Positions 5,387 through 20,565 of a stretch of DNA of 32,000 bases are shown one piece after another. The stretch comes from Bellilinea caldifistulae (GTDB lineage Bacteria > Chloroflexota > Anaerolineae > Anaerolineales > Anaerolineaceae), in contig NZ_LGHJ01000018.1 in assembly GCF_001306055.1 (NCBI RefSeq), positions 60,001-92,000 on the forward strand, written 5' to 3'. How positions within the stretch are numbered: the stretch's first letter is position 1; the number at the start of each line of letters is the position of its first letter. The position numbers and the translations under genes are program-made. Under the pieces are notes generated by a model. That model saw only the letters and a program-made list of their open reading frames with translations. It searched no databases and was not told where the DNA came from.

Positions 5387-8211
5387 ACGGACTTAAACAT
5401 ATGCATTCCACCCAGAAGTGGTTGAATATCCTTTGGATCCTTGTCCTCGTAGCGGGACAGGTTGCCTTGGGGCTTGGACCGGGATCGAGCGCCCAGGCGG
5501 CGAATAACCCTCAAAGTGAGCTCGACACTCGCGTGCGATTGATCATGGATCAGATGACACCGGAGCAGAAAGTTGGTCAGCTATTTCTGGTAACCTTCAA
5601 GGGTACCGATGCCCGACGTGACTCAGCGATTTACCGGTTGATTGTTGATTTTAAAGTGGGCGGAGTCGTGCTGCGCGCTGACAATGATAATTTTGAACCG
5701 GCGGGCAATACCGTTCCGAAAGCGGCTGAGTTGATCCGGGCTCTACAAAATCACGTTTGGGATGCTTCCCAAACCCAGGATCGAACAGCAGGTACGCAGG
5801 TTTTACCTTACATTCCGTTATTCATTGGCATTTCTCAGGAAGGGGATCTCTTTCCCAACGATCAAATTTTTAGCGGGATGACTTCCCTGCCCAGTTTGAT
5901 GGCAATCGGGGCGACCTGGAATCCATCCATGGCCGAAGCCGTTGGAAATGTGATGGGAAAGGAATTGCGGGCAATCGGCTTCAACCTGTACATTGGACCA
6001 TCTCTGGATGTGTTGGAGGTTACGGCAAATTCGGCTAATACATTGGGCGTTCGTACCTTTGGGGGGGATCCTTTCTGGGTAGGCGAGATGGGAAAGGCGT
6101 ATGTGCGTGGTTTGCATTTGGGCAGCCGCGATCAGATGGCGGTGATTGCCAAACATTTTCCGGGACGGGGAGCATCGGACCGCTTGCCGGAAGAAGAAGT
6201 GGCAACGGTGCGCAAATCGCTGGATGCGCTTCGTCAAATCGAACTGGCTCCGTTTTTTGCATCCATGCAAGCCAGTGTGGAGAGTAGAGCCCGGATGGAC
6301 GGGGTGATGGTTTCTCACATTCGCTATCAGGGGTTGCAGGAAAATATCCGTGAAATCACACCGCCCGTCAGTCTTGATGCTGAAGCAATGCGGCAGGTGC
6401 TGACTCTTGAACCGGCAGCCACATGGTATCAAGAAGGCGGCGTGATCGTCAGTGATAATTTGGGCAGTAACGCTGTAAGGCGCTTTTATGACCCGACCGG
6501 CCAGACTTTTGATGCGAGGGCGGTTGCCAGAAATGCCTTTCTGGCAGGGAATGATTTGTTGTATGTGAACAATTTCGTCGAACCCATTGACAACGACAGT
6601 TCCACTACGATTATGAGGGTTTTGGACTCGTTCGCCCAAAAATACCGTGAAGATGCTGCATTTGCCGAACGGGTTGATCAATCGGTAGAACGAATTTTGA
6701 AGTTGAAATTGCGTCTTTTCGGGGAGTTCCGCATTGACCGGGTGCTTCCGCCGGCGAGTCAACTGGCTGAGGTGGGACGATCGCAATCGGTGGCACTTGA
6801 AGTTGCCCGTAAAGCAGCAACCCTGCTCAGCCCTTCGGCAGCGGAATTAAACATACGGCTACCCCGTCCACCCGAAAGCCGCGATCAGATAATTTTTTTC
6901 ACTGACGTGGTGAGTGCACGGCAGTGCAGTACTTGTGGGGAACAGCCGATTTTTTCGGTAGACAGTCTGAAGAATGCGGTTATTCGCTTGTATGGGCCGG
7001 CAGCAGGTGGTTCCATTATTCAGGGTTATTTGTTTTCATATTCCTTCCTTGACCTGAACACCTATTTGAATAATCCGTCAGGTTTGGCTGCTTTGGGGGT
7101 CAATCTGGCTGATGCCGAATGGGTGGTTTTTGCACTTTCAGGTGACAATCCCTCTCACCCGGAATCACAAGCCCTCCGCCGATTATTGAATGAGCGCCCC
7201 GATTTGATTTTGAACAAAAAAGTGATTGTATTTGCGTTTGGGGCACCTTACTTACTGGATGCAACCGATATTGCAAAATTGACGGCCTATTACGGGTTAT
7301 ACAGTAAAGTGCCGGCGTTTGTTGATACGGCTGCCCGAATTTTGTTTCAGGAGCAAAGCGCAAATGGGGCCTCTCCGGTTTCGATCCCCGGAATCGGCTA
7401 CGATATTATCCGGGCAACCTCTCCCAACCCCCTCCAGGTGATATCTCTTTATTTGGATTTTCCGGTTAACCCTGAGATAACGGAGACTCCAATCACGCCT
7501 CAGCCAACCGAAACTCTTGAGTTTAAAGTGGGGGATGTAATCCCCTTTAGAACCGGAATTATTGTGGATCAAAACGGCAATCCGGTACCGGATGGTACCG
7601 TAGTGCGTTTCATCATCAATACGCTGGGTGAAAGCGGTACGACCCAGCAGATTGAAACCGTTACTACCGGCGGGGTCGCTAAGGCAAGTTATCGGATCAA
7701 CCTTCCTTCCACTATTGAAATTCGTGTAGTCAGCGAACCGGCAATGACCTCTCAGATTATTACCATTAACCCTCTGAATGGTGAAGCCAACATTTCCACA
7801 GAGGTACCTACTCCGCAACCCACTCTGACATCCACGCCTACCCTTACTCCGACACCCCAACCGACTGAAGAAGCCGAGGAACTTTCAGAAACCACGCTTG
7901 ATTATGGTTTTTGGGACTGGATGACCATGCTGCTGATTGTAGGAGGAGGGGGTGTGGGCATTGGTTTTATCGGACAACGGCGGATTTCTTTGCGCTGGGG
8001 TTTCCGTTGGGGGATGATGGCCGTCATTGGTGGAATTATGGCTTATCTATATCTGGTCAGCGGCTGGTTTGTGCCGTTAAGCCCCTTGGCCAGCGCAGGG
8101 CGATGGGGGGTGGCCATCAGCAGTCTGATTGGTTTACTCAGCGGTTGGGGAATTGGCTGGCTCTGGCAAATTCGTCTGCAAAAGGCCCAGAAACCTACCC
8201 GCAAGCCTTAA
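5383..8211 (+). CDS. Glycoside hydrolase family 3 (NagZ/beta-N-acetylhexosaminidase-like) with Ig-like domain, Pro/Thr linker and C-terminal 3-TM anchor
   Basis: 942-aa ORF. GTG 5383 overlaps the GDPD stop (GTGA); an alternative ATG lies at 5401. N-terminal signal is [22 protein letters not shown]3 motifs are KVGQLFLV and [11 protein letters not shown] beta-rich Ig-like segment lies near 7500-7760. The PT-rich linker is [19 protein letters not shown], followed by three hydrophobic helices at the C-terminus. Confidence 0.8.
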
Positions 8212-9191
8212 CGGATCAGGGTCATCAACAGACTGATGACCATCAATAAACCCGTAATGAAAATCAGACTTTGCTCCAGCGGGTAATTGATAAAACTCCA
8301 GGGGGAAGTGGCTTCGGTTTTAAGGCGAGGGAGGGTGGGACGGTCTCCGAGCAGGCTTTTTCGGAACACCTCAACGGATTCGGGTCGTTCATCGGGATGC
8401 AGCCCCATTGCCCATAAAATGCATCGTTCTGTTCGAAGTGAGATATCGGGGTTAATTTGACGGGGTGGAATCAGACGACTCGGGTCAAGAAATCGTTCGC
8501 GGGCGTCGGCAGGCGGTTCATTGGTTAAGAGGTGGTAGAGTGTTGCACCGAAGGCATAAATATCACTGCGAACATCGGTATGTCCACTGTCACCGCCGTA
8601 CTGTTCCAGGGGGGTGTAGAGCGCCGTACCCTGACCCTGTAAGACGGTAATGGTTACCTCGCCGGGTGCAAGGACTTTTACCAGTCCAAAATCCACCAAT
8701 TTGAGCAAACCGCTGGGGGTTACTTTCAGGTTGGAGGGTTTGATATCGCGGTGCAGGATCGGCGGATTTTGACTGTGAAGATAAGAAAGCGCGCTTGCCA
8801 GTTGATCGGCCCAGTTAAGCACCTCGGCTTCTGAAAGGAAACGATTTTCCTGTTTCGCTTCCATCATGAGAGAACGCAGATCCCTGCCGGGGATAAAATC
8901 CATCACAAGGTAATCACGCGAACCGGTGGAAAAAAAGTCGGAAACTTTGGGTAAGTTGGGATGATCCAAACGCGCCAGAACCGTTGCTTCGCGGAAGAAC
9001 TGATCTCGGGCTTCTTGCAGCAAATCTGGGGGAAGTGAACGATCGTGTTCGACTTCCTTAAGAGCGCATTGACGACCTTCGAGACGGAGATCATCCGCAA
9101 GGTAAATACTGCCCATGCCGCCTTGTCCGATTATGCGGACAATGCGGTAGCGGCCCCGTAAGACTTCTCCGGATTTTAGAGGCAAGGGCAT
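8208..9191 (-). CDS. Hanks-type Ser/Thr protein kinase, C-terminally tail-anchored (no extracytoplasmic domain)
   Basis: 327-aa ORF with kinase motifs [26 protein letters not shown] and DFGL. A single C-terminal TM ([19 protein letters not shown]) ends the protein. Its stop overlaps the GH3 stop by 4 nt on the opposite strand. Confidence 0.9.
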
Positions 9192-9353
9192 TGGTCAGAT
9201 CCCTGTTCTGTGGGGGTCAGGCAGTCTGGTGTCTTTCTCGGCGTGAAACCAGAATGTCTTCAGAATACTTTTACACAAAGTATCGATTCTTTGATATATT
9301 ATACCTTACTGGGTGAGGCAATCATTCCCAATCCTGCATTCTGGAGATGGGCA

Positions 9354-10034
9354 GTGGATTCGCGTAGTGAAGATCAACCGATTTTGATTGCACAAAGCGG
9401 GCCGCTGAACGGCAAGCGGTGGGATATTTTCGATGGAATGACCATTGGACGGGAAAAGGATTGTGATCTGGTAATTCCAGACCGTCAGGTGTCGCGTTAT
9501 CATGCCCGCTTTGAGGTGCACGCGGATCGAACTGTTCTCCATGATCTTTCAAGTAAAAATGGAACATACCGGAACGGCAAGCGGGTTGAAGAACCGGTTG
9601 TTCTTCAGGATGGGGATGTTGTTCAAATAGCGCTGGTTCAGTACTTTGTCTATCTCAGTTCGGATTCAACTTTACCATTGGGAACTGAATTTGAATTACC
9701 TCTTGAAGAAGCCGAGCAAAAGTTCAACAAACGATTGTTTTTGGATAAGTTATCCCGGCGGGTGTGGGTGAATGGACAGGAACTTTTACCGCCGCTTTCG
9801 GTACCTCAATTTCGGTTACTGGAAGCATTGTATGATAACGAGGGAAAGGTTGTTTCAAGGCAGGAATTGGTCGTCGCAGTCTGGGGGGATGAAGAAGCCA
9901 TAGGTGTCTCGGAACAGGCTCTGGATGCCCTGGTGAGACGTCTGCGGGATCGTCTGGCAGTGTTGGATCCCAATCATGCTTATCTGATTACCGTGCGCGG
10001 ATATGGGTTGCGCTTAGACAATCCTCCGGTTTAA
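9354..10034 (+). CDS. FHA domain + OmpR/PhoB-type winged-helix (Trans_reg_C) transcriptional regulator
   Basis: The track ORF starts at GTG 9210, only 18 nt from the divergent kinase start. I prefer the in-frame GTG 9354, which is preceded by GGAG at 9343-9346 with a 7-nt spacer. The FHA core is GKRWDIFDGMTIGREKDCDLVIPDRQVSRYHARF...SKNGTYRNG. The C-terminal wHTH is PQFRLLEALYDNEGKVVSRQEL...RRLRDRL...ITVRGYGLRL. Confidence 0.85.
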   Translation: MDSRSEDQPILIAQSGPLNGKRWDIFDGMTIGREKDCDLVIPDRQVSRYHARFEVHADRTVLHDLSSKNGTYRNGKRVEEPVVLQDGDVVQIALVQYFVYLSSDSTLPLGTEFELPLEEAEQKFNKRLFLDKLSRRVWVNGQELLPPLSVPQFRLLEALYDNEGKVVSRQELVVAVWGDEEAIGVSEQALDALVRRLRDRLAVLDPNHAYLITVRGYGLRLDNPPV

Positions 10035-12347: not shown

Positions 12348-12420
12348 GCCACCGTAGCTCAGACGGTAGAGCAGGCGTTTCGTAAACGTCTGGTCAAGGG
12401 TTCGAGTCCCTTCGGTGGCT
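12348..12420 (+). tRNA. tRNA-Thr (anticodon CGU), 73 nt, no encoded CCA
   Basis: Hand-folded cloverleaf: acceptor GCCACCG/CGGTGGC, D arm GCTC-AGACGGTA-GAGC, anticodon arm GGCGT-TTCGTAA-ACGTC. The variable loop is TGGTC, the T arm is AAGGG-TTCGAGT-CCCTT and the discriminator is T. Confidence 0.9.
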
Positions 12421-12653
12421 CTTTGATTCTACACCCGCATCAGAGATGTTTCGGTTTTTCATCCCGGTAACATTGTACCGACTCGGTATTTCTGTTTTCG
12501 GTGGATTTTTCAAATATCCGGAACTCTCGCTGGATGTCCTGTAAGGACCAGAGCAAGATTTGCCCGAATGAAAGGAAACTTCCTTTCAACGCTATTCAGT
12601 TGAAGCAGGACAGGAATGCATTGTTCTTTGCAATGAAAATTGAAAAAGTTTCC

Positions 12654-12854
12654 TTAAAAACCGATACGGAACCAATCTGTACCGGTAATTACGGAAAGTG
12701 CCAGCAGGATGAACACAATAAAAAGGATCATTCCGCAGCCACACCCTAAACAGGAGCCGCTGCCAAATCCAAATCGGGATTGGAGCCAGTTAAACAGGCG
12801 ATCCAGTAAAAACAATTTCAACAAACCTGATAAGCAACCTGGGCGATTGTCCAT
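12654..12854 (-). CDS. Hypothetical small (66 aa) Cys/Gly-rich membrane protein
   Basis: ATG-initiated ORF with GAGAGG about 11 nt upstream. It has a GFGSGSCLGCGCG motif followed by one hydrophobic helix. No recognisable family; coding status is uncertain. Confidence 0.35.
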   Translation of the reverse strand: MDNRPGCLSGLLKLFLLDRLFNWLQSRFGFGSGSCLGCGCGMILFIVFILLALSVITGTDWFRIGF

Positions 12855-12971
12855 TTTGTTTTGAACCTCTCTGTTTTTCTACTTTATTTACGAAAGAGAT
12901 GCAGAAAAGTTGCCTGAAAGATGCGGGTTAAGCCTTGTATAATGCTCTCGGAAGAATTCAACAAAAATTGC

Positions 12972-13001
12972 TTGACAATTCCAGACACCTCTCAGTAAAA
13001 T
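12972..13001 (+). promoter_or_regulatory. Candidate sigma70-type promoter of the his operon (TTGACA-N18-TAAAAT)
   Basis: -35 TTGACA lies at 12972-12977 and -10 TAAAAT at 12996-13001, with an 18-nt spacer. The -10 ends 7 nt before the leader-peptide ATG. A second perfect TATAAT at 12938-12943 is an alternative. Confidence 0.45.
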
Positions 13002-13008
13002 AACCCAT

Positions 13009-13086
13009 ATGATACCCGTGATGCATACTCCCATTTCTCTCCATCATCATCATTTGATCCATAACCTCCACTGTCCGATTGGGTGA
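13009..13086 (+). CDS. hisL: his operon leader peptide, 25 aa, MIPVMHTPISLHHHHLIHNLHCPIG (7 His codons, 4 consecutive)
   Basis: Translated by hand: ATG 13009 ... CAT CAT CAT CAT (13042-13053) ... TGA 13084-13086. It sits between a promoter-like element and a terminator immediately upstream of hisG. It is too short to appear in the ORF track. Confidence 0.7.
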   Translation: MIPVMHTPISLHHHHLIHNLHCPIG

Positions 13087-13120
13087 GTGGGTAGTTCGGG
13101 TATTACCGCTTAGAACCAAC

Positions 13121-13146
13121 CCCCGCCAATCGGCGGGGTTTTTTTT
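13121..13146 (+). terminator. Intrinsic terminator / attenuator hairpin upstream of hisG
   Basis: CCCCGCC (13121-13127), loop AATC, GGCGGGG (13132-13138), then TTTTTTTT (13139-13146). It lies 26 nt before the hisG ATG and inside a transcription unit, which is the attenuator position. Confidence 0.75.
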
Positions 13147-13172
13147 ATATCTTTTTGCATTGAGGGAAAGCC

Positions 13173-14222
13173 ATGAAAACTTTTCGGATTTCGTTACCAT
13201 CCAAAGGCCGTTTATCTGATGAAGCAATGAATTTTTTAGAATCTTGCGGCTTACGGGTTTACAAACCCAATCCTCGCCAGTACGAGGCAGTCCTGCCGGA
13301 TTTGCCGGATTTGAAAGTCCTTTTTCAAAGGCCGGGGGATATTGTTGCCAGTGTTGCCGATGGAAGCGTTGACTTTGGGATTACGGGTCTGGATATGGTC
13401 ATGGAAAAATCACCGGAACCAACGTCAATTCTGGTTTTGCACGAGGCGCTGGGGTTTGGGGGTTGTACATTGAGTCTGGCAATTCCAGAGGGGTGGGAAG
13501 GAATAAATACTCTTGAAGGACTGAAAACCCATGCGGTTTACTTGGGGCGTCCATTGCGGGTGGCGACCAAGTTTTCTCGTTTGACCGGTCAGTTTTTGAG
13601 CCTGCACCAAATTCCATTTTCCCTGATCTCTGCTGAAGGAACGCTCGAAACTGCCCCGGCGATTGGTTATGCCGATATGATCAGTGATCTGGTGGCCTCT
13701 GGGCAAACTCTGCGGGATAACCGCTTGAAGGTCATTGAAGGCGGTGAGATTCTCGCTTCTCAGGCGGTACTGATTGCCAATTTTCACCGGTTGAAGGATA
13801 GCGAAGCAGCCCAGGCGCTCGCCCGCAACTTACTGGAATTGATCGAGGCTCATTTGCGGGGAAGTACCAATTACTCGGTATTTGCCAATATGCGCGGCCC
13901 ATCGGCTCAGGCAGTTGCTCAACGGATTTTTGATCACAGCACTTTACATGGTTTACAAGGCCCGACCATCTCACCGGTGTTTACCCCGCGGGGAAACGGT
14001 GATTGGTATGCTGTGCATGTGGTGGTTGAAAAGCATGAGATTTACCGGGCGGTCAATGAACTCCGGGCGGTGGGCGGTAGCGGAGTGGTGGTTGTGCCGG
14101 TAACCTACATTTTTGATGAGGAGCCGCCGCGTTGTCTGAGGATGAAACAAGCGTTGAGCATGGCTCAACCGCCAACCCTTGCCGCTATATTAGAAAAACC
14201 ATCGGAGCGAAAAGATGATTGA
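13173..14222 (+). CDS. hisG: ATP phosphoribosyltransferase, long form (with HisG_C regulatory domain) plus ~30-aa C-terminal tail
   Basis: 349-aa ORF with RBS GAGGGAAAG. The catalytic region is LPSKGRL...DIVASVADGSVDFGITGLD...ISDLVASGQTL. The C-terminal regulatory domain ends in VVVVPVTYIF. Confidence 0.9.
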   Translation: MKTFRISLPSKGRLSDEAMNFLESCGLRVYKPNPRQYEAVLPDLPDLKVLFQRPGDIVASVADGSVDFGITGLDMVMEKSPEPTSILVLHEALGFGGCTLSLAIPEGWEGINTLEGLKTHAVYLGRPLRVATKFSRLTGQFLSLHQIPFSLISAEGTLETAPAIGYADMISDLVASGQTLRDNRLKVIEGGEILASQAVLIANFHRLKDSEAAQALARNLLELIEAHLRGSTNYSVFANMRGPSAQAVAQRIFDHSTLHGLQGPTISPVFTPRGNGDWYAVHVVVEKHEIYRAVNELRAVGGSGVVVVPVTYIFDEEPPRCLRMKQALSMAQPPTLAAILEKPSERKDD

Positions 14223-15339
14223 TGAAATTCAAAAAGATGTGTTTGAGCGTTTTGAACAGGTTGCGCCCTACACCCCGATTGAGCCGTTTGAAGTCATTGC
14301 GGAGAGAGTGGGGCGAAAGCCTGAGGAAATTATCAAGTTAGACGCAAATGAAAACCCTTACGGTCTCTCTCCGTTGGCGCGTCAAGCTTTGAGCGGATTG
14401 CGTTGGGGCAATATTTATCCTGATCCGGAAAGCCGTGCCTTACGTCAGGCGATTTCCGGTTTTCTGAATGTTCCGGTCGAACATATTTTGGCTGGCGCTG
14501 GCGCAGATGAATTGATTGATTTGATTTTGCGAGTCCTGTTGAAGCCCGGTGACGCCGTGCTGGTTGCACCTCCTACCTTTGGTATGTATGCCTTCGACGC
14601 CCGGATTAATGGTGGACGGGTGCTGGAGGTGCCGCGTAATCCGGACTTCAGTCTAAATCTGGAGGGGATGCGTCGGATTGTGCAACAGCAAAAACCACGG
14701 GCGGTTTTACTGGCTTCTCCTAACAACCCGGATGGAAGAATGCTCACCCCGTCGGAATTGGAGGAAATCTTTTCGTGGGGTGTGCTGGTTGTACTGGATG
14801 AGGCATATATCGAATTCAGTGATGGTGGGCAATTGGGCGAAAAAAACAGTCAGATTCGTCTGCCGCTTGAACGGGATAATGTGATTGTGTTGCGTACTTT
14901 CAGTAAATGGGCTGGACTTGCCGGACTGCGAGTGGGTTACGGTGTTTTTCCGCAGTGGATGCTGCCGGTTTTGTGGAAGGTAAAGCAGCCCTACAATGTC
15001 AATGTGGCAGCCAGTGCAGCGGCCATTGCTTCGTTGGAGGATTTAGCCTGCCTTATTGAGCGGGTGGCCAATCTCCGCTCGGAACGCTGGCGCCTGTTCA
15101 ACGTGCTTACCCAGGTTGACTGGCTGGAACCTGTGCCCTCGCAGGCTAATTTCATTTTATGCCGGGTTAAAGGGCGGCCTGCCAGGAATGTCAAAGCCGA
15201 TTTGATGAAAAGAGGCATCTTTGTACGCTATTTTGATACCCCTCTACTGCAAAACTATATTCGTATCAGTGTTGGATTACCTCAACACCACGATGTTTTG
15301 TTTCAAGTCTTGAAGGAAATGGAGGAACCCAACTCATGA
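14215..15339 (+). CDS. hisC: Histidinol-phosphate aminotransferase
   Basis: 374-aa ORF overlapping the hisG stop by 8 nt. It shows class-II aminotransferase features: KLDANENPYG, SPNNPDG, and TFSKWAGLAGLRVGY with the PLP lysine. Confidence 0.9.
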   Translation: MIDEIQKDVFERFEQVAPYTPIEPFEVIAERVGRKPEEIIKLDANENPYGLSPLARQALSGLRWGNIYPDPESRALRQAISGFLNVPVEHILAGAGADELIDLILRVLLKPGDAVLVAPPTFGMYAFDARINGGRVLEVPRNPDFSLNLEGMRRIVQQQKPRAVLLASPNNPDGRMLTPSELEEIFSWGVLVVLDEAYIEFSDGGQLGEKNSQIRLPLERDNVIVLRTFSKWAGLAGLRVGYGVFPQWMLPVLWKVKQPYNVNVAASAAAIASLEDLACLIERVANLRSERWRLFNVLTQVDWLEPVPSQANFILCRVKGRPARNVKADLMKRGIFVRYFDTPLLQNYIRISVGLPQHHDVLFQVLKEMEEPNS

Positions 15340-15950
15340 CTGAAAACCAGGTGAAAGGGCGAATTGCTTCACTTAGCCGGCAGACCCGCGAAACTTTCGT
15401 TCAAGTGGAATTAAACCTGGACGGAACAGGCGAGTACCAGATTCAAACCGGTATCGGATTTTTAGACCATATGCTGGCGCAGCTGGCTTTCCACGGTCTG
15501 TTTGATTTACGGATCCGGGCGGAGGGTGATTATGAAGTGGATTATCACCATACCGTTGAGGATTGTGGTCTGCTGCTGGGGGAGGCGTTTGACCGCGCGT
15601 TGGGCGAACGCAAAGGGCTGGTGCGGATGGCAGTTCAGTATGCACCGATGGACGACAGTTTAGCCAGGGTAGTGGTGGATTTGTCCGGCAGGCCTTATAG
15701 TGTGATCAAGGCACGCTGGGAAGCCAGCGAAGTCGGCCGTATTCCGGTGAGTTTGTGGGAGCATTTTCTGGAATCCTTTGCACTGCGTTCCCGTTCAAAC
15801 CTGCATGTCAAGGTCTTTTACGGAAGGGATGGTCATCATCAAGTGGAGGCCGTCTTTAAAGCGCTGGCGAGGTCACTCTGCGAGGCCAGCCGGTTGGAAC
15901 CGCGCCGTTTGAATGAAGTGCCATCCACAAAAGGAGCCTTGAATGTCTGA
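15336..15950 (+). CDS. hisB: Imidazoleglycerol-phosphate dehydratase
   Basis: 204-aa ORF with an ATGA overlap onto hisC. IGPD motifs are present: RQTRETFV, GIGFLDHML, DYHHTVEDCG, GRDGHHQVEA. Confidence 0.92.
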   Translation: MTENQVKGRIASLSRQTRETFVQVELNLDGTGEYQIQTGIGFLDHMLAQLAFHGLFDLRIRAEGDYEVDYHHTVEDCGLLLGEAFDRALGERKGLVRMAVQYAPMDDSLARVVVDLSGRPYSVIKARWEASEVGRIPVSLWEHFLESFALRSRSNLHVKVFYGRDGHHQVEAVFKALARSLCEASRLEPRRLNEVPSTKGALNV

Positions 15951-16557
15951 TCCAATGGTCGTTGTAGATGCCGGCACAGGCAATTTACGTTCGGTGGTCG
16001 GGGCTTTGACCAAAATAGGCGCTTCGGTCAGGCTGACCCGTGACCCGGAGGATGTTTTGAGGGCTGAACGAATTATTCTGCCGGGGGTAGGAGCATTTGG
16101 TGAGTTTATGCAGGGACTCACTCGAAATCACCTGGATGAAGCCCTGAAAAACTTTATCCAAAGCGGACGGCCGCTCCTGGGGATTTGCGTGGGTATGCAG
16201 GCTTTAATGGAAATCAGCGAGGAGCTTGGAAGTTACCAAGGCTTGTCTCTTTTCAAGGGGCCGGTCAGGAAATTTCCATCCATGCCGGCTTACAAAGTGC
16301 CGCATACCGGTTGGAATCAAGTCTGGATCAGGCGGGACTCACCCCTCACCCGAGGACTTACCAGTGGGTTTTATGCTTATTTCAATCACAGCTATTATTG
16401 CCAGCCGCACCAGAACGAGTTTGTCCTTGCGACAACCGATTATACGCTTGACTTTTGTAGCATGATTGGGCAGGGAGTTCTGTTTGGCGTTCAATTTCAT
16501 CCCGAAAAGAGCCAGGCAGTTGGTGAAATTTTGCTGAACAATTTTGTCAACTTGTAG
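15943..16557 (+). CDS. hisH: Imidazole glycerol phosphate synthase, glutamine amidotransferase subunit
   Basis: 204-aa ORF overlapping hisB by 8 nt. Class-I GATase motifs are present: ILPGVGAFG, LGICVGMQ, VQFHPEKS. Confidence 0.92.
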   Translation: MSDPMVVVDAGTGNLRSVVGALTKIGASVRLTRDPEDVLRAERIILPGVGAFGEFMQGLTRNHLDEALKNFIQSGRPLLGICVGMQALMEISEELGSYQGLSLFKGPVRKFPSMPAYKVPHTGWNQVWIRRDSPLTRGLTSGFYAYFNHSYYCQPHQNEFVLATTDYTLDFCSMIGQGVLFGVQFHPEKSQAVGEILLNNFVNL

Positions 16558-16573
16558 GCGAGGCAGGAAGAAA

Positions 16574-17326
16574 ATGAGTGATTTTACGATTTTCCCGGCG
16601 ATTGACCTGCGGGATGGAAAAGTCGTTCGATTGGAATTGGGTGATCCCACCCGGCAGACGATATTCAGTGAGGATCCGGCAGAAGTGGCTTATCGTTTTT
16701 TCCGTTCAGGCGCAAAATGGCTGCATGTCATCAATCTGGATGGGGCATTTGGTGATGAGCGCCGCGCAAGAAAAAATGAAACGGCAATTGCCCGGATTTT
16801 GGAAATAACCCCAGAGTTTGGAGGAAAAATTCAAGTGGGGGGAGGTTTGCGTTCGATGAAAGCGTCCGAGCGGCTATTGGCGATGGGAGTCAACCGGGTG
16901 ATTTTTGGTACGCTGGCCGTTGAGCAGCCGCAACAGGTGACCGGATGTATTCGGCAATGGGGTTCAGAGCGAATTGCGGTCAGTGTGGACCTGCGTGCCG
17001 GTAAAATCCAGACTCACGGCTGGCAGCAAAGCGCACAAATGGAGCCAGGAGAGTGGCTGTATCGGCTGGCAGACGAAGGTTTACGCTGGGTGATGGTAAC
17101 CGATGTGGAACGGGATGGCATGTTAAGCGGGGCAAATCCTGAGGTAACTCTTTGGGTGCGGCAGGATAAGAGACTTAAAGTGGTGCTGGCAGGAGGAGTC
17201 AGCCGGTTGGTGGATATTCAGGTTGCCCACCGTAGCGGTCTTGCCGGAGTGATCATCGGACGGGCTTTGTATTCCGGTGAATTGAATTTACCTGAGGTGT
17301 TGAAGGAGGTAACCCATGCTGGCTAA
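16574..17326 (+). CDS. hisA: 1-(5-phosphoribosyl)-5-[(5-phosphoribosylamino)methylideneamino]imidazole-4-carboxamide isomerase
   Basis: ATG 16574 ([20 protein letters not shown]...) with GGAAG upstream is preferred to the track's TTG 16544. HisA motifs are PAIDL.DG, GGGLRS and GVIIGRALY. Confidence 0.9.
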
Positions 17327-18107
17327 GCGGATCATTCCATGTCTGGATATCAAGGATGGCCGGGTGGTCAAAGGGATTAACTTCATCTCCCTGCGGGATG
17401 CTGGCGATCCGCTCCGGCAAGCAGCCTTGTACGATGCGATGGGTGCGGATGAACTGGTCTTTTTGGACATTCAGGCCACGCCGGAAGGACGGAAGACGGT
17501 GGTGGACCTGGTTGCCCGTGTTGCCGAAGAAATCCGCATGCCGCTAACGGTAGGAGGTGGAGTACGCAGTGTGGAGGACATGCGTCAGTTATTGCTGGCT
17601 GGGGCGGATAAGATCAGTATCAATTCTGCGGCTGTCCGCAACCCCCATATCCTTCGTGAAGGCGCTGATCGGTTTGGCAGCCAATGTATCGTGCTGGCGG
17701 TTGATGCGAGGAGAATCATGAAAAACAGCCCCGTGCCCCGATGGGAGGTCATTGTGGATGGGGGCAGGACACCAACAGGATTGGATGCGCTGGAATGGGC
17801 CGAGCAAGCCGTTCGTTTGGGTGCAGGTGAAATCCTCCTGACCAGCATGGATAGAGACGGTACGCGGGCTGGCTATGATCTTGAATTGACGCGGGAGTTC
17901 AGCAAAAACCTGCCAGTGCCGGTAATTGCCTCCGGCGGGGCCGGTCAAATGGAGCATTTTGCTGAGGTGCTGGATGCCGGCGGTGCAGATGCCGCCCTTG
18001 CAGCGACCTTGTTTCATGACGGAATTATCCGAATCCCGGAATTAAAGCACTATCTCTCTCAACGAGGAATACCGGTGCGCTTGCTGGAGAAAGGAGAAAG
18101 ATCATGA
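17316..18107 (+). CDS. hisF: Imidazole glycerol phosphate synthase, cyclase subunit
   Basis: 263-aa ORF with the N-terminus [19 protein letters not shown], plus [14 protein letters not shown] and ASGGAG. It overlaps the hisA stop. Confidence 0.93.
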
Positions 18108-18451
18108 ACCGAGAAGGTAGTTTGAGGTTTGACGAGAAGGGTTTAATCCCTGCGGTTATTCAAGATGCTTTCAGTCAACAAGTACTGATGCTGGGGTGGA
18201 TGAACCGAGAGGCGTTGGAACTGACCCGCAGCACAGGACTGGTTCACTTCTGGTCGCGCAGCCGTCGGCGTTTATGGAAGAAAGGCGAAACATCCGGCAA
18301 TTTGATGCAGGTCGTAGAAATCAGCGTGGATTGTGACCGGGATGCTCTTTTGGTGCGGGTGTTGCGCAAGGGCCCGGCCTGTCATACCGGCATGGTCACC
18401 TGTTTTCACAACCCGATGGACGAGGAGAATGAAAATCATGCAATTTCTTGA
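18104..18451 (+). CDS. hisI: Phosphoribosyl-AMP cyclohydrolase
   Basis: 115-aa ORF with an ATGA overlap onto hisF. Motifs are [35 protein letters not shown], and GPACHTG with the zinc-site Cys. Confidence 0.9.
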
Positions 18452-18719
18452 TCAACTGAGTAAAGTGATTGAAGATCGGCGGGATAATCCACGGGAAGGG
18501 TCATATACCTGCTACCTGTTTGCAAGCGGTGAGGATGAAATCCTGAAGAAAATTGGAGAGGAAGCGGTTGAGGTGATTCTCGCGGCAAAAGGACAGGGAC
18601 ACCAGCGGATTGTGGAGGAAGTCAGCGATCTCCTCTATCATGTCCTGGTGCTTCTTTCATTAAAGAGGGTGAATTTAGACGAAATTGAGGAAGAATTACG
18701 CCGTCGACATGGAAAATGA
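18438..18719 (+). CDS. hisE: Phosphoribosyl-ATP pyrophosphatase
   Basis: ATG 18438 ([15 protein letters not shown]...SYTCYLF...EEAVEVILA...EVSDLLYHVLVLL) has GAGGAG 10 nt upstream. The track ORF start 18333 lies inside hisI in another frame. This is a separate gene overlapping hisI by 14 nt, not a hisIE fusion. Confidence 0.85.
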   Translation: MQFLDQLSKVIEDRRDNPREGSYTCYLFASGEDEILKKIGEEAVEVILAAKGQGHQRIVEEVSDLLYHVLVLLSLKRVNLDEIEEELRRRHGK

Positions 18720-19186: not shown

Positions 19187-19753
19187 ATGGAGATTCAAAC
19201 ATTTTCATATTGCTCTCCAAAATTGGAGTTGCGTCCGTGCCCTGAAAAGGGGGGATTTGGTTTGTTTGCGATTGAGCCAATCAGCGCAGGCGAGCTGTTG
19301 GCTATGTGGGGCGGGCAGGTGGTCACCAGTGAACAACTGCAGTACCTGCCGGTTGACCGCCAGACACACGGCATTCAAATTCATGAAGATCTTTATCTGG
19401 TACCGGTTACTCACGGTGAACCCGCCGATTATTTCAATCATTCCTGTAATCCCAATTGTGGATTGGATTCGCCAATTTCGCTGGTCGCCATGCGGGATAT
19501 TGAAGTGGGGGAGGAAGCCTGCTTCGATTACGCAATGAGCGATTCCTCCGACTATGACGAATTCGAGTGTCACTGTGGAGCCCCTAATTGCCGCAAGACC
19601 ATTACCGGTCGGGATTGGATGCTTCCCGAACTTCAGGAAAGATATTTTGGGTTTTTCTCACCCTATCTTCAGCGGCGGATTGAAAAAATGCGTGAAGAAA
19701 TCCAATTGAAAGGAAATGGCAACAAACCCGCCAATATAACGGACGACCGCTGA
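19187..19753 (+). CDS. SET domain protein (putative protein-lysine methyltransferase) with post-SET Cys cluster
   Basis: 188-aa ORF with a strong RBS (AAGGAG). SET motifs are GFGLFA...I.AGELL, YFNHSCNPNC and EEACFDY. The post-SET motif is CHCGAPNCRK. Confidence 0.85.
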   Translation: MEIQTFSYCSPKLELRPCPEKGGFGLFAIEPISAGELLAMWGGQVVTSEQLQYLPVDRQTHGIQIHEDLYLVPVTHGEPADYFNHSCNPNCGLDSPISLVAMRDIEVGEEACFDYAMSDSSDYDEFECHCGAPNCRKTITGRDWMLPELQERYFGFFSPYLQRRIEKMREEIQLKGNGNKPANITDDR

Positions 19754-19770
19754 TCGGTTGAGGTGAAAAT

Positions 19771-20565
19771 ATGTCGGTAATCTCATTGTTGACCGATTTC
19801 GGTGATCGGGATGCGTTTGTGGGTGTCATGAAAGGGGTAATCTGGAGGATCGCCCCTCAAGTTCAAATTGCCGACCTTACCCACTGGATCGAACCGCAGA
19901 ATGTTTTACACGGTGCCTTAATTCTGGGCCAGGCGTATCGGTATTTCCCGCAGAGGAGTGTACATCTATCTATCGTGGATCCGGGGGTGGGTACTCAACG
20001 AAGAGCAGTAGCCGTCCGAATAGGAGATTTTTATTTTGTCGCGCCGGATAACGGTCTGCTGACCATACCGTTAGAGCGAGCTGAAAAAACCGGAGAACCG
20101 ATTCATGCGGTCGAGCTGAACGAACCGCGTTTCTGGCTGCCGGAAGTCAGTCATTCGTTTCACGGCAGGGATATCTTCGCCCCATGTGCAGCGCATCTGG
20201 CAAATGGCGTACCCCTGGACGAGCTGGGCAGTCATGTGGAGAGCCGAGATCTTTTGCGCGTAGTCATTCCCCGACCTCGCCGTACACCAACCGGCTGGGA
20301 AGCGCAGGTATTAATGGCTGATGTGTTTGGAAATCTGATCAGCAATCTTACTTCGGAAGATTTGGGCGATCAAAAAATTCGTAAAGTGTTTATCGCCGGT
20401 ACCTCCATCGAGCGATTTACGCGGACGTTCGGGGAAGCGCCAAGCGGGTCTCTCATCACGATGTTCGACAGTTCAGGGTATTTGAGCGTTTGTGTGGTTA
20501 ACGGAAATGCCCAGAAACAGTTGAACGTTCGGGTAGGAGACCCGCTGGAAGTGGTCACTGAATAA
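19771..20565 (+). CDS. SAM hydroxide adenosyltransferase / SAM hydrolase (DUF62, fluorinase-chlorinase superfamily)
   Basis: 264-aa ORF starting 17 nt after the SET gene. Motifs are LLTDFGDRDAFVGVMKGV, IVDPGVGTQRR, VAPDNGLL, FHGRDIFAP. Confidence 0.85.
   Translation: MSVISLLTDFGDRDAFVGVMKGVIWRIAPQVQIADLTHWIEPQNVLHGALILGQAYRYFPQRSVHLSIVDPGVGTQRRAVAVRIGDFYFVAPDNGLLTIPLERAEKTGEPIHAVELNEPRFWLPEVSHSFHGRDIFAPCAAHLANGVPLDELGSHVESRDLLRVVIPRPRRTPTGWEAQVLMADVFGNLISNLTSEDLGDQKIRKVFIAGTSIERFTRTFGEAPSGSLITMFDSSGYLSVCVVNGNAQKQLNVRVGDPLEVVTE

What the first reader, a model, noticed from the sequence alone, without database searches (positions are those of the whole stretch)
12972..13172. His-codon leader peptide plus terminator: ribosome-mediated attenuator in front of hisG
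A 25-codon ORF lies between a TTGACA-N18-TAAAAT promoter and hisG (ATG 13173). It runs ATG13009..TGA13086 and encodes MIPVMHTPISLHHHHLIHNLHCPIG, with 7 of 25 codons His, including CAT x4 at 13042-13053. A GC hairpin starts 34 nt downstream: CCCCGCC-AATC-GGCGGGG (13121-13138) followed by T8 (13139-13146). It ends 26 nt before the hisG start. The G-rich stretch spanning the leader stop codon (GGGTGAGTGGGTAGTTCGGG, 13081-13100) can pair by eye with GAACCAACCC (13113-13122), which overlaps the 5' side of the terminator. That makes it a candidate antiterminator. A ribosome reaching the stop would mask it, while a ribosome stalled on the His codons would leave it free. This is the logic of the enterobacterial hisL attenuator. 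To my knowledge, leader-peptide control of his genes is described mainly for Gammaproteobacteria (the Rfam His_leader seed), and Firmicutes use T-boxes. An instance in this apparently Chloroflexota-like context would be new or convergent.
Basis: partly seen in the sequence, partly recalled or inferred. Interest (0 to 1): 0.75.

Follow-up and report, generated by a model that had tools for sequence, protein, structure and literature searches.

The report
Histidine leader-peptide attenuator before hisG
A tiny histidine-rich reading frame followed by a transcription stop signal sits in front of the histidine-synthesis genes of this Anaerolineae (Chloroflexota) bacterium and of about 70 related species. 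It almost certainly lets a stalling ribosome switch the genes on when histidine runs short: a classic mechanism, here in an RNA family and a phylum where I found no earlier description.

Summary
The interpretation, a ribosome-mediated His attenuator, is strongly supported by comparison with related genomes.

- **Gene context:** the downstream genes are hisG-C-B-H-A-F-I-E of a Bellilinea-like Anaerolineae.
- **Conservation of the His run:** 68 of 81 hisG upstream regions from different Anaerolineae species carry an in-frame run of at least three CAY codons in a 13-31 codon ORF. Background is 0.03 per 300 nt, and there are none on the opposite strand. Each run is followed by a GC hairpin and a T-run.
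- **Homology of the window element:** a covariance model built without the window's own subgroup finds it at 44.5 bits (E 5e-10). It also finds 50 of 59 other loci.
- **Antiterminator:** its core is CCGAUUGG (13075-13082) pairing with CCAAUCGG (13126-13133), which covers the end of the terminator's 5' arm, its loop and the first 2 nt of its 3' arm. This helix covaries across the family.
- **New features:** a conserved promoter places the leader AUG 5-10 nt after the -10 box, so the mRNA is probably leaderless. A covarying long-range helix pairs the 5' end, including the AUG, with the segment after the leader stop.
- **Prior knowledge:** there is no Rfam match, and I found no prior description.

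Verdict: a new member of a known kind, of moderate interest.

The parts
12972..12977 (+). -35 hexamer TTGACA of the leader promoter
   Evidence: 11/12 match with an 18-nt spacer. TTGACA or a one-mismatch variant is conserved at the same relative place in 62 of 68 relatives.
12996..13001 (+). -10 hexamer TAAAAT. The predicted transcription start is about 13007-13009, at or just before the leader AUG.
   Evidence: The leader ATG lies 7 nt after the -10 box here and 5-10 nt after it in 57 of 68 loci. There is no room for a Shine-Dalgarno sequence and none is present. The leaderless start is inferred, not mapped.
13009..13086 (+). Leader ORF (25 codons plus TGA), MIPVMHTPISLHHHHLIHNLHCPIG
   Evidence: Orthologous short ORFs with His runs occur in 68 or more related loci.
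13042..13053 (+). Regulatory His codons, CAT x4 (codons 12-15). Further His codons lie at 13024-13026, 13060-13062 and 13069-13071.
   Evidence: The run is aligned with the CAY runs of all relatives. 80% of run codons are CAT, against 32% in the hisG coding sequences.
13010..13018 (+). P0 5' strand (UGAUACCCG): the 5' end of the transcript, including the UG of the start codon
   Evidence: Pairs with 13097-13105 in the MFE fold. RNAalifold predicts it on the window group with compensatory changes, CCCG:CGGG here against CCUG:CAGG in relatives. Family-wide, own-partner duplexes average -15.5 kcal/mol against -11.6 for cross-locus pairs, p = 4e-7.
13068..13090 (+). Hairpin 1:2 (13068-13072 with 13086-13090, plus 13075-76 with 13082-83), with the stop codon in its 3' arm. 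It acts as the anti-antiterminator.
   Evidence: -10.3 kcal/mol. Kept in all 5 sequences of the window group. The equivalent GCCUCC:GGAGGU hairpin is predicted in the core group.
13075..13097 (+). Antiterminator 5' strand. The core CCGAUUGG is 13075-13082; the extension includes GGGU 13089-13092 and GUUC 13094-13097.
   Evidence: MFE of the nascent RNA ending at 13133 is -23.6 kcal/mol. The core helix covaries in 59 sequences: 89.8% of cells paired, 5 of 7 pairs with changes on both sides, 0 of 500 shuffles as good. RNAalifold predicts it independently. The whole strand lies inside the footprint of a ribosome sitting on the stop codon.
13097..13105 (+). P0 3' strand (CGGGUAUUA)
13113..13133 (+). 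Antiterminator 3' strand: GAAC 13113-13116, then 13119-13133, which covers the whole terminator 5' arm, its loop and the first 2 nt of its 3' arm
13121..13146 (+). Intrinsic terminator: stem CCCCGCC/GGCGGGG, loop AATC, then T8
   Evidence: The stem scores -15.9 kcal/mol. A terminator sits at the same place in essentially every relative.
13162..13167 (+). hisG Shine-Dalgarno sequence GAGGGA, which lies outside the terminator hairpin
   Evidence: Read from the sequence. Equivalent GAGG motifs are present in relatives.
13173..18719 (+). Regulated operon hisG-hisC-hisB-hisH-hisA-hisF-hisI-hisE
   Evidence: NCBIfam equivalog hits for each ORF. Only 26 nt separate the T-run from the hisG ATG, which leaves no room for a separate promoter.

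Best explanation
This is a ribosome-mediated (leader-peptide) transcription attenuator of the his operon. It belongs to an RNA family conserved across the class Anaerolineae.

[quoted passage not shown] The 25-codon leader is therefore probably translated from a leaderless mRNA.

**Default state (off).** The 5' end of the RNA pairs with 13097-13105 (helix P0), and 13068-13072 pairs with 13086-13090 (hairpin 1:2). This leaves 13121-13138 free to form the terminator, so RNA polymerase stops at the U-tract (13139-13146).

**Histidine plentiful (off).** The ribosome runs to the UGA stop. Its footprint there covers the whole 5' strand of the antiterminator (13075-13097), so the terminator again forms.

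**His-tRNA scarce (on).** The ribosome stalls on the CAU codons at 13042-13053, and possibly at 13060-13062. The antiterminator strand stays exposed and the P0/1:2 fold is disturbed. The segment 13075-13092 then pairs with 13119-13133, which is the terminator's 5' arm, loop and first two 3'-arm bases. The terminator cannot form and the polymerase reads into hisG.

**Shown here:** all sequence elements, their conservation, covariation of the antiterminator core and of P0, and the thermodynamic preferences under ribosome masks.

**Inferred:** the transcription start, translation of the leader, the kinetics, and the response to histidine.
For: 1. **Elements and gene context.**
2. **Conservation.** 68 of 81 hisG upstream regions have an in-frame CAY run of at least 3 codons in a short ORF, against 0.034 expected per 300 nt and 0 of 81 on the opposite strand. 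Four more have interrupted His clusters. In two loci the leader lies further upstream. Terminators follow in essentially all.
3. **Homology.** Model R1 was built from 15 core-group leaders without the window group. It hits window 13018-13147 at 44.5 bits, E 5.4e-10. This is the only hit in the window. It also hits 50 of 59 other loci at E <= 0.002.
4. **Antiterminator covariation.**
   - On a sequence-based MAFFT alignment of 59 leaders, 89.8% of cells pair and 5 of 7 pairs change on both sides (28 cells). No shuffle of 500 does as well, and slid controls pair 9-53%.
   - The subfamily variants differ but each stays complementary: UGACCGG:CCGGUCA, CCGAUUGG:CCAAUCGG, GAUCGGC:GCCGAUC and GCAUGUUCGGG:CCCGACCAUGC.
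   - RNAalifold returns the same helix on its own.
5. **RNA-level constraint.** The nucleotide motif CCUGCCUGACCGGAG is kept in a subgroup that reads it in another frame.
6. **Ribosome logic.**
   - Over 64 loci, the nascent-RNA MFE sequesters 80% of the terminator 5' arm with a ribosome on the His run. The figure is 24% with a ribosome on the stop codon and 42% for shuffled sequence. At least 70% is sequestered in 50 of 64 loci (stalled) against 4 of 64 (at stop).
   - In the window, with a stalled ribosome, the antiterminator is the MFE for 3' ends 13128-13136, which is the part of the RNA exposed when the polymerase is on the U-tract. Without a ribosome, P0 plus 1:2 and then the terminator dominate.
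7. **Promoter.** It is conserved, and the ATG lies 5-10 nt after the -10 box in 57 of 68 loci.
8. **No room for a second promoter.** Only 26 nt separate the T-run from hisG.
Against: - **No experimental data.** There is no mapped transcription start, no mapped 3' end and no measured response to histidine.
- **Spacer length in the window's subgroup.** The His run ends 14 nt before hairpin 1:2, against about 5 nt in the core group. A ribosome stalled on codons 12-15 would reach only to about 13064-13066 and would not itself mask 13068-13072. Only the extra His codon 18 of the window would do so, and it is not conserved in L001-L004. Disruption of the off-state fold in this subgroup therefore has to be attributed to loss of P0 or to steric effects, which is inferred.
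- **Thermodynamics alone do not decide.**
   - At full length the terminator fold is always more stable: -40.8 against -34.3 kcal/mol. Read-through must therefore be kinetic, as in classical attenuators.
   - At a 3' end of 13133 with no ribosome, the antiterminator is marginally favoured: -27.8 against -25.7 kcal/mol.
- **Weak covariation of hairpin 1:2.** It is conserved in sequence but shows almost no changes on both sides.
- **Leaderless translation is uncommon in this phylum.** Published predictions give 4-6% of genes in the Chloroflexi genomes analysed (PMC3160421).
Confidence: 0.85

Rival explanations
1. The architecture is the same, but the switch acts on translation or RNA stability rather than on transcription termination. 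The hairpin plus U-tract would serve as a processing or stability element or would modulate hisG translation, as in the mycobacterial leaderless poly-Cys short ORFs that unmask a ribosome-binding site.
For: Leaderless short-ORF attenuators that act on translation are documented in mycobacteria (10.1101/834739). The efficiency of intrinsic termination in Anaerolineae is untested.
Against: The hairpin is a canonical intrinsic terminator: 7 G-C pairs, a tetraloop and T8. The same design is present in essentially every relative. The hisG Shine-Dalgarno sequence (13162-13167) lies 16 nt beyond the U-tract and is not part of any conserved pairing.
Confidence: 0.05
2. The CAU repeat is not decoded. 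It is instead bound by a trans factor, which decides between terminator and antiterminator. The factor could be a histidine-activated RNA-binding protein in the manner of TRAP, or uncharged tRNA-His in the manner of a T-box.
For: T-boxes do occur in Chloroflexi (PMC3766115). Triplet repeats can be protein-binding sites. CAU is strongly preferred over CAC in the runs.
Against: - No T-box or any other Rfam family matches.
- The runs are always in frame within a short ORF. Its ATG sits at a fixed 5-10 nt from the -10 box, and its stop lies in or just after the antiterminator strand.
- Interrupted His clusters (HPHH, HNHTSH, HRHH) replace the repeat in some species. This preserves the amino acid, not the RNA repeat.
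Confidence: 0.04
3. The promoter, short ORF and terminator form an independent small gene for a His-rich, perhaps metal-binding, peptide. Its location next to hisG has no regulatory meaning.
For: The unit has its own promoter and terminator, and the peptide is His-rich.
Against: - hisG has no room for its own promoter, with only 26 nt after the T-run.
- Outside the His run the peptide sequence is poorly conserved. Its C-terminus is read in different frames in different subgroups while the nucleotides are kept.
- Linkage to hisG, or to a gene directly preceding hisG, is kept in about 70 species.
- The covarying antiterminator has no role in this reading.
Confidence: 0.02

Closest known systems
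Enterobacterial his operon leader (hisL; Rfam His_leader RF00514)
   Same: A short ORF with tandem His codons precedes hisG. Terminator and antiterminator folds are mutually exclusive, and an upstream anti-antiterminator is present. The position of the ribosome (stalled on His codons or at the stop) selects the fold.
   Different: - There is no detectable sequence or structure homology: no RF00514 match on the coding strand.
- It has 3-5 consecutive His codons instead of 7.
- The leader ORF is probably leaderless, with the AUG 5-10 nt after the -10 box and no Shine-Dalgarno sequence.
- The antiterminator pairs with the terminator loop as well as the 5' arm.
- A long-range helix sequesters the 5'-terminal AUG.
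- The host phylum is Chloroflexota.
Predicted His leader-peptide attenuators of Firmicutes (B. cereus group, Peptostreptococcaceae, Erysipelotrichales; PMC9413887, PMC2965389)
   Same: Both are lineage-specific leaders, independent of RF00514, with 3-5 His codons in a row followed by terminator and antiterminator hairpins upstream of his operons. Both were identified by comparative genomics only.
   Different: They come from a different phylum. I could not compare the sequences, so homology is untested. No leaderless start or 5'-end helix has been reported for them.
Mycobacterial leaderless poly-cysteine short-ORF attenuators (10.1101/834739; PMC4633059)
   Same: A leaderless short ORF enriched in codons for the amino acid made by the downstream operon. 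Ribosome stalling remodels the downstream RNA structure.
   Different: [quoted passage not shown] Here the output element is a canonical intrinsic terminator. The amino acid is Cys there and His here. Leaderless status there was mapped experimentally; here it is inferred from promoter spacing.
His-specific T-box leaders (Firmicutes, Actinobacteria; T-boxes also occur in Chloroflexi, PMC3766115)
   Same: A terminator/antiterminator decision upstream of his genes that responds to tRNA-His charging.
   Different: A T-box senses uncharged tRNA directly without translation. No T-box model matches here, and the element is only about 140 nt long with a translated short ORF.

Membership tests
Rfam His_leader (RF00514, gammaproteobacterial hisL) | Match to the covariance model at or above the gathering score (49 bits) | tested here: not met
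   There is no hit on the + strand. The only hit is 14.6 bits (E 6.2) on the - strand. Nothing was found at gathering threshold in the window or in 20 related loci.
Rfam His_leader (RF00514, gammaproteobacterial hisL) | Short ORF with tandem His codons directly upstream of the first his gene | tested here: met
   4 consecutive His codons and 7 of 25 in total, 86 nt upstream of hisG.
Leader-peptide (ribosome-mediated) transcription attenuators, as a functional class | Short ORF enriched in codons for the amino acid made by the downstream operon, conserved in orthologous leaders | tested here: met
   68 of 81 loci have a CAY run of at least 3 codons, and more have interrupted His clusters. Background is 0.034 per 300 nt.
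Leader-peptide (ribosome-mediated) transcription attenuators, as a functional class | Intrinsic terminator between the leader ORF and the first structural gene, with no intervening promoter | tested here: met
   The gap to the hisG ATG is 26 nt.
Leader-peptide (ribosome-mediated) transcription attenuators, as a functional class | Alternative antiterminator pairing that is mutually exclusive with the terminator and supported by covariation | tested here: met
   89.8% paired, 5 of 7 pairs with changes on both sides, 0 of 500 shuffles as good; RNAalifold; MFE of the nascent RNA.
Leader-peptide (ribosome-mediated) transcription attenuators, as a functional class | Antiterminator strand covered by a ribosome at the stop codon but free when the ribosome is stalled on the regulatory codons | tested here: met
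   Window geometry. Across 64 loci, 80% of the arm is sequestered with a stalled ribosome against 24% with a ribosome at the stop. This is computational only and assumes a footprint of +16 nt from the P site.
Leader-peptide (ribosome-mediated) transcription attenuators, as a functional class | Stalled ribosome masks the anti-antiterminator (region 1) | tested here: inconclusive
   Met in the core group, where region 1 starts about 5 nt after the run. In the window subgroup the spacer is 14 nt, so only the non-conserved His codon 18 would mask 13068-13072.
Leader-peptide (ribosome-mediated) transcription attenuators, as a functional class | Premature termination relieved by starvation for the amino acid | not testable with these tools
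   Needs Term-seq, northern blots or reporter assays.
T-box leaders (RF00230) | Match to the T-box model (Stem I, specifier loop, T-box sequence) | tested here: not met
   no T-box hit, even at E <= 10 in 12850-13250.
Leaderless short-ORF attenuators (mycobacterial type) | Transcript begins at the start codon of the short ORF | tested here: inconclusive
   The ATG is 7 nt after the -10 box here and 5-10 nt after it in 57 of 68 loci, with no Shine-Dalgarno sequence. No transcription-start data are available.
Leaderless short-ORF attenuators (mycobacterial type) | [quoted passage not shown] | tested here: not met
   The output element is an intrinsic terminator. The hisG Shine-Dalgarno sequence (13162-13167) lies outside all conserved pairings.
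Anaerolineae his leader family (defined here, model R1) | Significant match to a covariance model built from other subgroups of the family | tested here: met
   Window 13018-13147 (+) scores 44.5 bits, E 5.4e-10. It is the only hit in 32 kb.

The most novel reading that the evidence does not exclude
The element may be a leaderless transcription-termination attenuator. In this reading the leader peptide is translated from an mRNA that begins at its AUG. A conserved, covarying long-range helix (P0) then captures that 5'-terminal AUG once the polymerase has passed the leader stop.

The decision would integrate two signals. The first is whether a 70S ribosome loaded on the 5' end in time. The second is whether that ribosome stalled on His codons. 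The stalled or queued ribosome would act by keeping the 5' strand of P0 unavailable, not only by masking a classical region 1.

This would be a mechanistic variant not described for amino-acid attenuators. Its conservation across a whole class would also imply tight transcription-translation coupling in Anaerolineae.
Probability: 0.4. Interest if true: 0.65.

Novelty: new member of a known kind. Interest (0 to 1): 0.5.

Why it matters
- **Wider reach of the mechanism.** It extends amino-acid leader-peptide attenuation to Chloroflexota as a class-wide, well-conserved RNA family that is absent from Rfam. The family is evidently independent of the enterobacterial hisL, so it adds a clean case of convergent, or very ancient, invention of the same logic.
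- **Implication for coupling.** The mechanism only works if a ribosome follows RNA polymerase closely. Its conservation therefore predicts functional transcription-translation coupling in Anaerolineae. From my own knowledge, such coupling is not universal, since B. subtilis is reported to be uncoupled.
- **A test system for leaderless translation.** The probable leaderless start and the helix that sequesters the 5' end offer a compact natural system for studying how leaderless initiation can be wired into attenuation.
- **Annotation.** These short ORFs are missed by gene callers. Model R1, or the motif, can mark the his regulon in Anaerolineae genomes assembled from metagenomes.

Tried and rejected
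- **Rfam.** I searched at gathering threshold (window, 20 loci) and at E <= 10 (12850-13250). Only tRNAs and sub-threshold chance hits driven by the terminator came back (Hrs1, MicF, Trp/Leu/Phe leaders at 15-25 bits). I rejected these as homology.
- **First P0 test.** I defined the 3' segment relative to the stop codon. The result was weak (p = 0.018) because long-leader subgroups keep the partner inside the ORF. I redid it anchored on the conserved region-2 motif.
- **Column-wise covariation count for P0 on the 59-sequence MAFFT alignment.** It was unusable because the helix register shifts between subgroups. I did not use it as evidence either way.
- **Column-wise terminator covariation on the same alignment.** I abandoned it for the same reason and detected terminators per sequence instead.
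It scores only -4.3 kcal/mol. I kept it only as part of the larger helix.
- **Literature.** I searched for any Chloroflexi or Anaerolineae his leader or attenuator and found none. Lopatovskaya et al. 2010 (Mol Biol 44:128), which surveys attenuators across phyla, is not held in the library, so I cannot exclude prior mention there.
- **Bidirectional terminator.** I considered that the hairpin might serve a convergent gene. I rejected this because the reverse strand has no T-run and the nearest neighbour on that side is the leader promoter itself.
Full report
**1. The observation**

- ORF 13009-13086 (+) translates to MIPVMHTPISLHHHHLIHNLHCPIG*. It has four CAT codons at 13042-13053 and seven His codons in all.
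- A promoter-like site TTGACA-18-TAAAAT lies at 12972-13001 and scores 11/12.
- The hairpin CCCCGCC-AATC-GGCGGGG (13121-13138) is followed by eight T (13139-13146). It starts 34 nt after the stop codon and ends 26 nt before the ATG at 13173.
- The ORFs from 13173 to 18719 are hisG (long form), hisC, hisB, hisH, hisA, hisF, hisI and hisE, each with an NCBIfam equivalog hit.
- The organism is a Bellilinea-like member of the Anaerolineae. The best HisG relatives are 86-94% identical and come from Bellilinea/Anaerolineaceae genomes.

**2. Is it more than chance, and is it conserved?**

I fetched hisG loci from 80 species-representative genomes, nearly all Anaerolineae, and examined the 300 nt upstream of hisG.

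- 68 of 81 regions, counting the window, contain a run of at least three CAY codons on the coding strand. None of the 81 has one on the opposite strand.
- The density elsewhere in the same DNA is 0.034 per 300 nt.
- All the runs sit in short ORFs of 13-31 codons. The commonest form is M-x7-8-HHH(H)-T-x-LPPA-stop.
- Four further loci have interrupted His clusters: HPHH, HNHTSH, THH and HRH.
- In two loci the leader lies further upstream. In one it precedes a 510-codon ORF adjacent to hisG, and in the other it lies before an insertion of about 420 nt.
- Each leader is followed by a G+C-rich hairpin and a T-run.
- A composite pattern scan finds one site in the window and one spurious site in all the remaining fetched DNA.

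**3. Family membership of the window's element**

A MAFFT alignment of 59 leaders shows a shared sequence of blocks. These are the ATG, the CAY run, a C-rich block, the motif (U)GACCGG or its variants, a G-rich block, a variable spacer, and the terminator CCCCCGG-UC..-CCGGGGG-U(n).

I built a covariance model from 15 core-group leaders, with none from the window's subgroup. It hits window 13018-13147 (+) at 44.5 bits, E 5.4e-10. This is the only hit in the window. It also hits 50 of 59 other loci at E <= 0.002. The window's element is therefore a diverged homologue of a class-wide family, not an isolated look-alike.

**4. The alternative structures**

*Terminator (3:4).* 13121-13127 pairs with 13132-13138, at -15.9 kcal/mol.

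*Antiterminator (2:3).* The conserved core is CCGAUUGG (13075-13082, the last codons of the leader) pairing with CCAAUCGG (13126-13133). The latter comprises the last two bases of the terminator's 5' arm, its loop, and the first two bases of its 3' arm.

- Other subfamilies have different sequences, but each is complementary to its own terminator apex. Examples are UGACCGG:CCGGUCA, GAUCGGC:GCCGAUC and GCAUGUUCGGG:CCCGACCAUGC.
- On the sequence-based alignment, seven column pairs were counted. 89.8% of cells pair, five of seven pairs change on both sides (28 cells), no shuffle of 500 does as well, and slid controls give 9-53%.
- RNAalifold returns the same helix without being told.
- In the window, the MFE of the nascent RNA ending at 13133 extends the helix to 13075-13092 with 13119-13133, plus a capping hairpin, at -23.6 kcal/mol.
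- A subgroup with the longer leader ending PLPDRRAG keeps the nucleotides CCUGCCUGACCGGAG but reads them in another frame. The constraint is on the RNA, not on the peptide.

*Hairpin 1:2.* 13068-13072 pairs with 13086-13090, with inner pairs 13075-76:13082-83, at -10.3 kcal/mol. Its loop holds the antiterminator core. It is kept in the window group. Its equivalent, GCCUCC:GGAGGU, is predicted in the core group. It shows little covariation.

*Helix P0.* UGAUACCCG (13010-13018) pairs with CGGGUAUUA (13097-13105).

- In the window group RNAalifold predicts it with compensatory changes: CCCG:CGGG here against CCUG:CAGG in the relatives.
- Across the family the sequences differ widely but stay complementary. 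Examples are GCAAAACG:CGUUUUGC, GCCAAAC:GUUUGGC and AUGAAACAAACC:GGUUUGUUUCGU.
- Own-partner duplexes average -15.5 kcal/mol, against -11.6 for cross-locus pairs (Wilcoxon p = 4e-7).

**5. Promoter and the probable leaderless start**

The -35 and -10 hexamers are conserved, with TTGACA-17/18-TAnnnT in 62 of 68 loci. The leader ATG begins 5-10 nt after the -10 hexamer in 57 of 68 loci, and 7 nt after it in the window. There is no Shine-Dalgarno sequence and no room for one.

The leader is therefore probably translated from a leaderless, or nearly leaderless, mRNA. P0 would then pair the very 5' end of the transcript, including the start codon. This is inferred from spacing, and no transcription-start data exist. 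Published predictions put leaderless genes at 4-6% in the Chloroflexi genomes that have them (PMC3160421).

**6. How it most likely works**

I placed a ribosome with a footprint reaching +16 nt from the P site.

- *Across 64 loci.* A ribosome stalled on the last His codon of the run leaves a nascent RNA whose MFE sequesters 80% of the terminator's 5' arm. At least 70% is sequestered in 50 of 64 loci. A ribosome on the stop codon gives 24% (4 of 64 loci), and shuffled upstream sequence gives 42%.
- *In the window, stalled ribosome.* The antiterminator is the MFE for 3' ends 13128-13136. This is the stretch exposed while the polymerase sits on the U-tract. The terminator wins only from about 13140.
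- *In the window, no ribosome.* P0 plus 1:2 is the MFE from 13106 to 13130, and P0 plus the terminator from 13136 onward. The full-length energy is -40.8 kcal/mol, against -34.3 with the antiterminator enforced.

This gives the following logic.

- No ribosome, or a ribosome released: off.
- Ribosome at the stop, covering 13069-13097 and so the whole antiterminator strand: off.
- Ribosome stalled on CAU codons: on.

As in the classical systems, read-through has to be kinetic, because the terminator fold is the more stable at full length.

One step is not settled. In the core group the C-rich region 1 begins about 5 nt after the His run, so the stalled ribosome masks it as in the trp paradigm. 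In the window's subgroup the spacer is 14 nt. Only the window's extra His codon 18 (13060-13062) would put a ribosome over 13068-13072, and that codon is not conserved in L001-L004. In this subgroup, I attribute loss of the off-state fold to P0 being unavailable. The cause would be a stalled ribosome together with a second ribosome held on the 5' end, or steric exclusion. This is inference.

A further detail concerns codon choice. 80% of the codons in the runs are CAU, against 32% in the hisG coding sequences of the same genomes. This would fit selection for the wobble-read, slower codon. The fit is an inference from general knowledge of tRNA-His decoding, and RNA-level constraints could also explain the bias.

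**7. Comparison with what is known**

Functionally this works like the enterobacterial hisL attenuator. It is not a member of that family, because RF00514 does not match.

- His leader-peptide attenuators independent of RF00514 have been predicted in three Firmicutes lineages (PMC9413887, and earlier PMC2965389).
- Leaderless short ORFs enriched in the cognate codon regulate Cys operons in mycobacteria, but through unmasking of the ribosome-binding site (10.1101/834739).
- A 2013 survey of RNA regulons recorded T-boxes, but no amino-acid attenuators, in Chloroflexi. It regarded those attenuators as essentially gammaproteobacterial (PMC3766115).
- My literature searches found no description of a Chloroflexi or Anaerolineae his leader. 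One relevant survey (Lopatovskaya et al. 2010) is not held in the library.

**8. Verdict**

- The kind, leader-peptide attenuation of his genes, is textbook.
- What is new is the family: it is class-wide in Anaerolineae, absent from Rfam, and not homologous to hisL.
- Two design features also appear new: a probably leaderless leader ORF whose 5' end is captured by a covarying long-range helix, and an antiterminator that pairs with the terminator loop.
- I rate it a new member of a known kind, interest 0.5.
- I give 0.85 confidence to the attenuator reading. I give about 0.4 probability to the more novel reading, in which the decision senses the 5' end of a leaderless mRNA.

Noticed in passing
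window 12348-12421 (+); also L001 2307-2379 and L004 2352-2424: A tRNA-Thr (anticodon CGT) lies about 590 nt upstream of the leader promoter. An identical-scoring tRNA sits at the same relative place in two close relatives, so the neighbourhood is syntenic.
   Followed up: partly
window 13173-18719: The operon is hisG-C-B-H-A-F-I-E without hisD. None of the window ORFs I scanned is a hisD, and several other ORFs were not scanned. hisI and hisE are separate, overlapping ORFs rather than a fusion.
   Followed up: partly
window 14100-14222 (HisG residues about 309-349): HisG is 349 aa long. The HisG_C model ends at residue 313, and a further C-terminal stretch carries a motif invariant in 21 Anaerolineae sequences (P309, Y312-I-F, E316-E-P, R320). 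It looks like a clade-specific C-terminal extension of unknown role.
   Followed up: no
leader His runs of the window and L001-L080: 80% of the His codons in the leader runs are CAT, while the hisG coding sequences of the same loci use 32% CAT. This may reflect selection for the slower, wobble-read codon or an RNA-level constraint.
   Followed up: partly
L030 791-926 and L061 2450-2582: In L030 the leader-terminator unit lies about 540 nt upstream of a 510-codon ORF that directly precedes hisG. In L061 about 420 nt of hairpin-rich sequence separates the leader from hisG. The regulated unit is therefore not always hisG-first.
   Followed up: partly
L024, L062, L065, L071, L072: These hisG loci have a coding gene running up to hisG, and neither the motif scan nor model R1 found a leader within the fetched flank. 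his regulation there may differ, or the leader may lie beyond the flank.
   Followed up: no
L028 (labelled Candidatus Zixiibacteriota) compared with L027 (Anaerolineales): The two loci have identical leader, terminator and flanking sequence. The 3.2-kb contig in the Zixiibacteriota bin is probably mis-binned Anaerolineales DNA.
   Followed up: no
leader C-termini across loci (e.g. L013 LPPA*, L063 PLPDRRAG*, window CPIG*): Many leaders end in Pro-rich motifs followed by UGA-C. From general knowledge these resemble slow-termination or arrest contexts, and could hold the ribosome on the stop codon. However, the same nucleotides are constrained by the antiterminator, so the peptide motif may be incidental.
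   Followed up: no
window 8208-10034: A Ser/Thr protein kinase gene (- strand, 8208-9191) is divergent from a gene encoding an FHA domain fused to an OmpR-type DNA-binding domain (9210-10034). This looks like a kinase/FHA-regulator pair.
   Followed up: no
window 19187-20565: Directly after the his operon come a SET-domain protein (19187-19753) and a SAM hydroxide adenosyltransferase family protein (19771-20565). I did not examine whether they are co-transcribed with the his genes.
   Followed up: no
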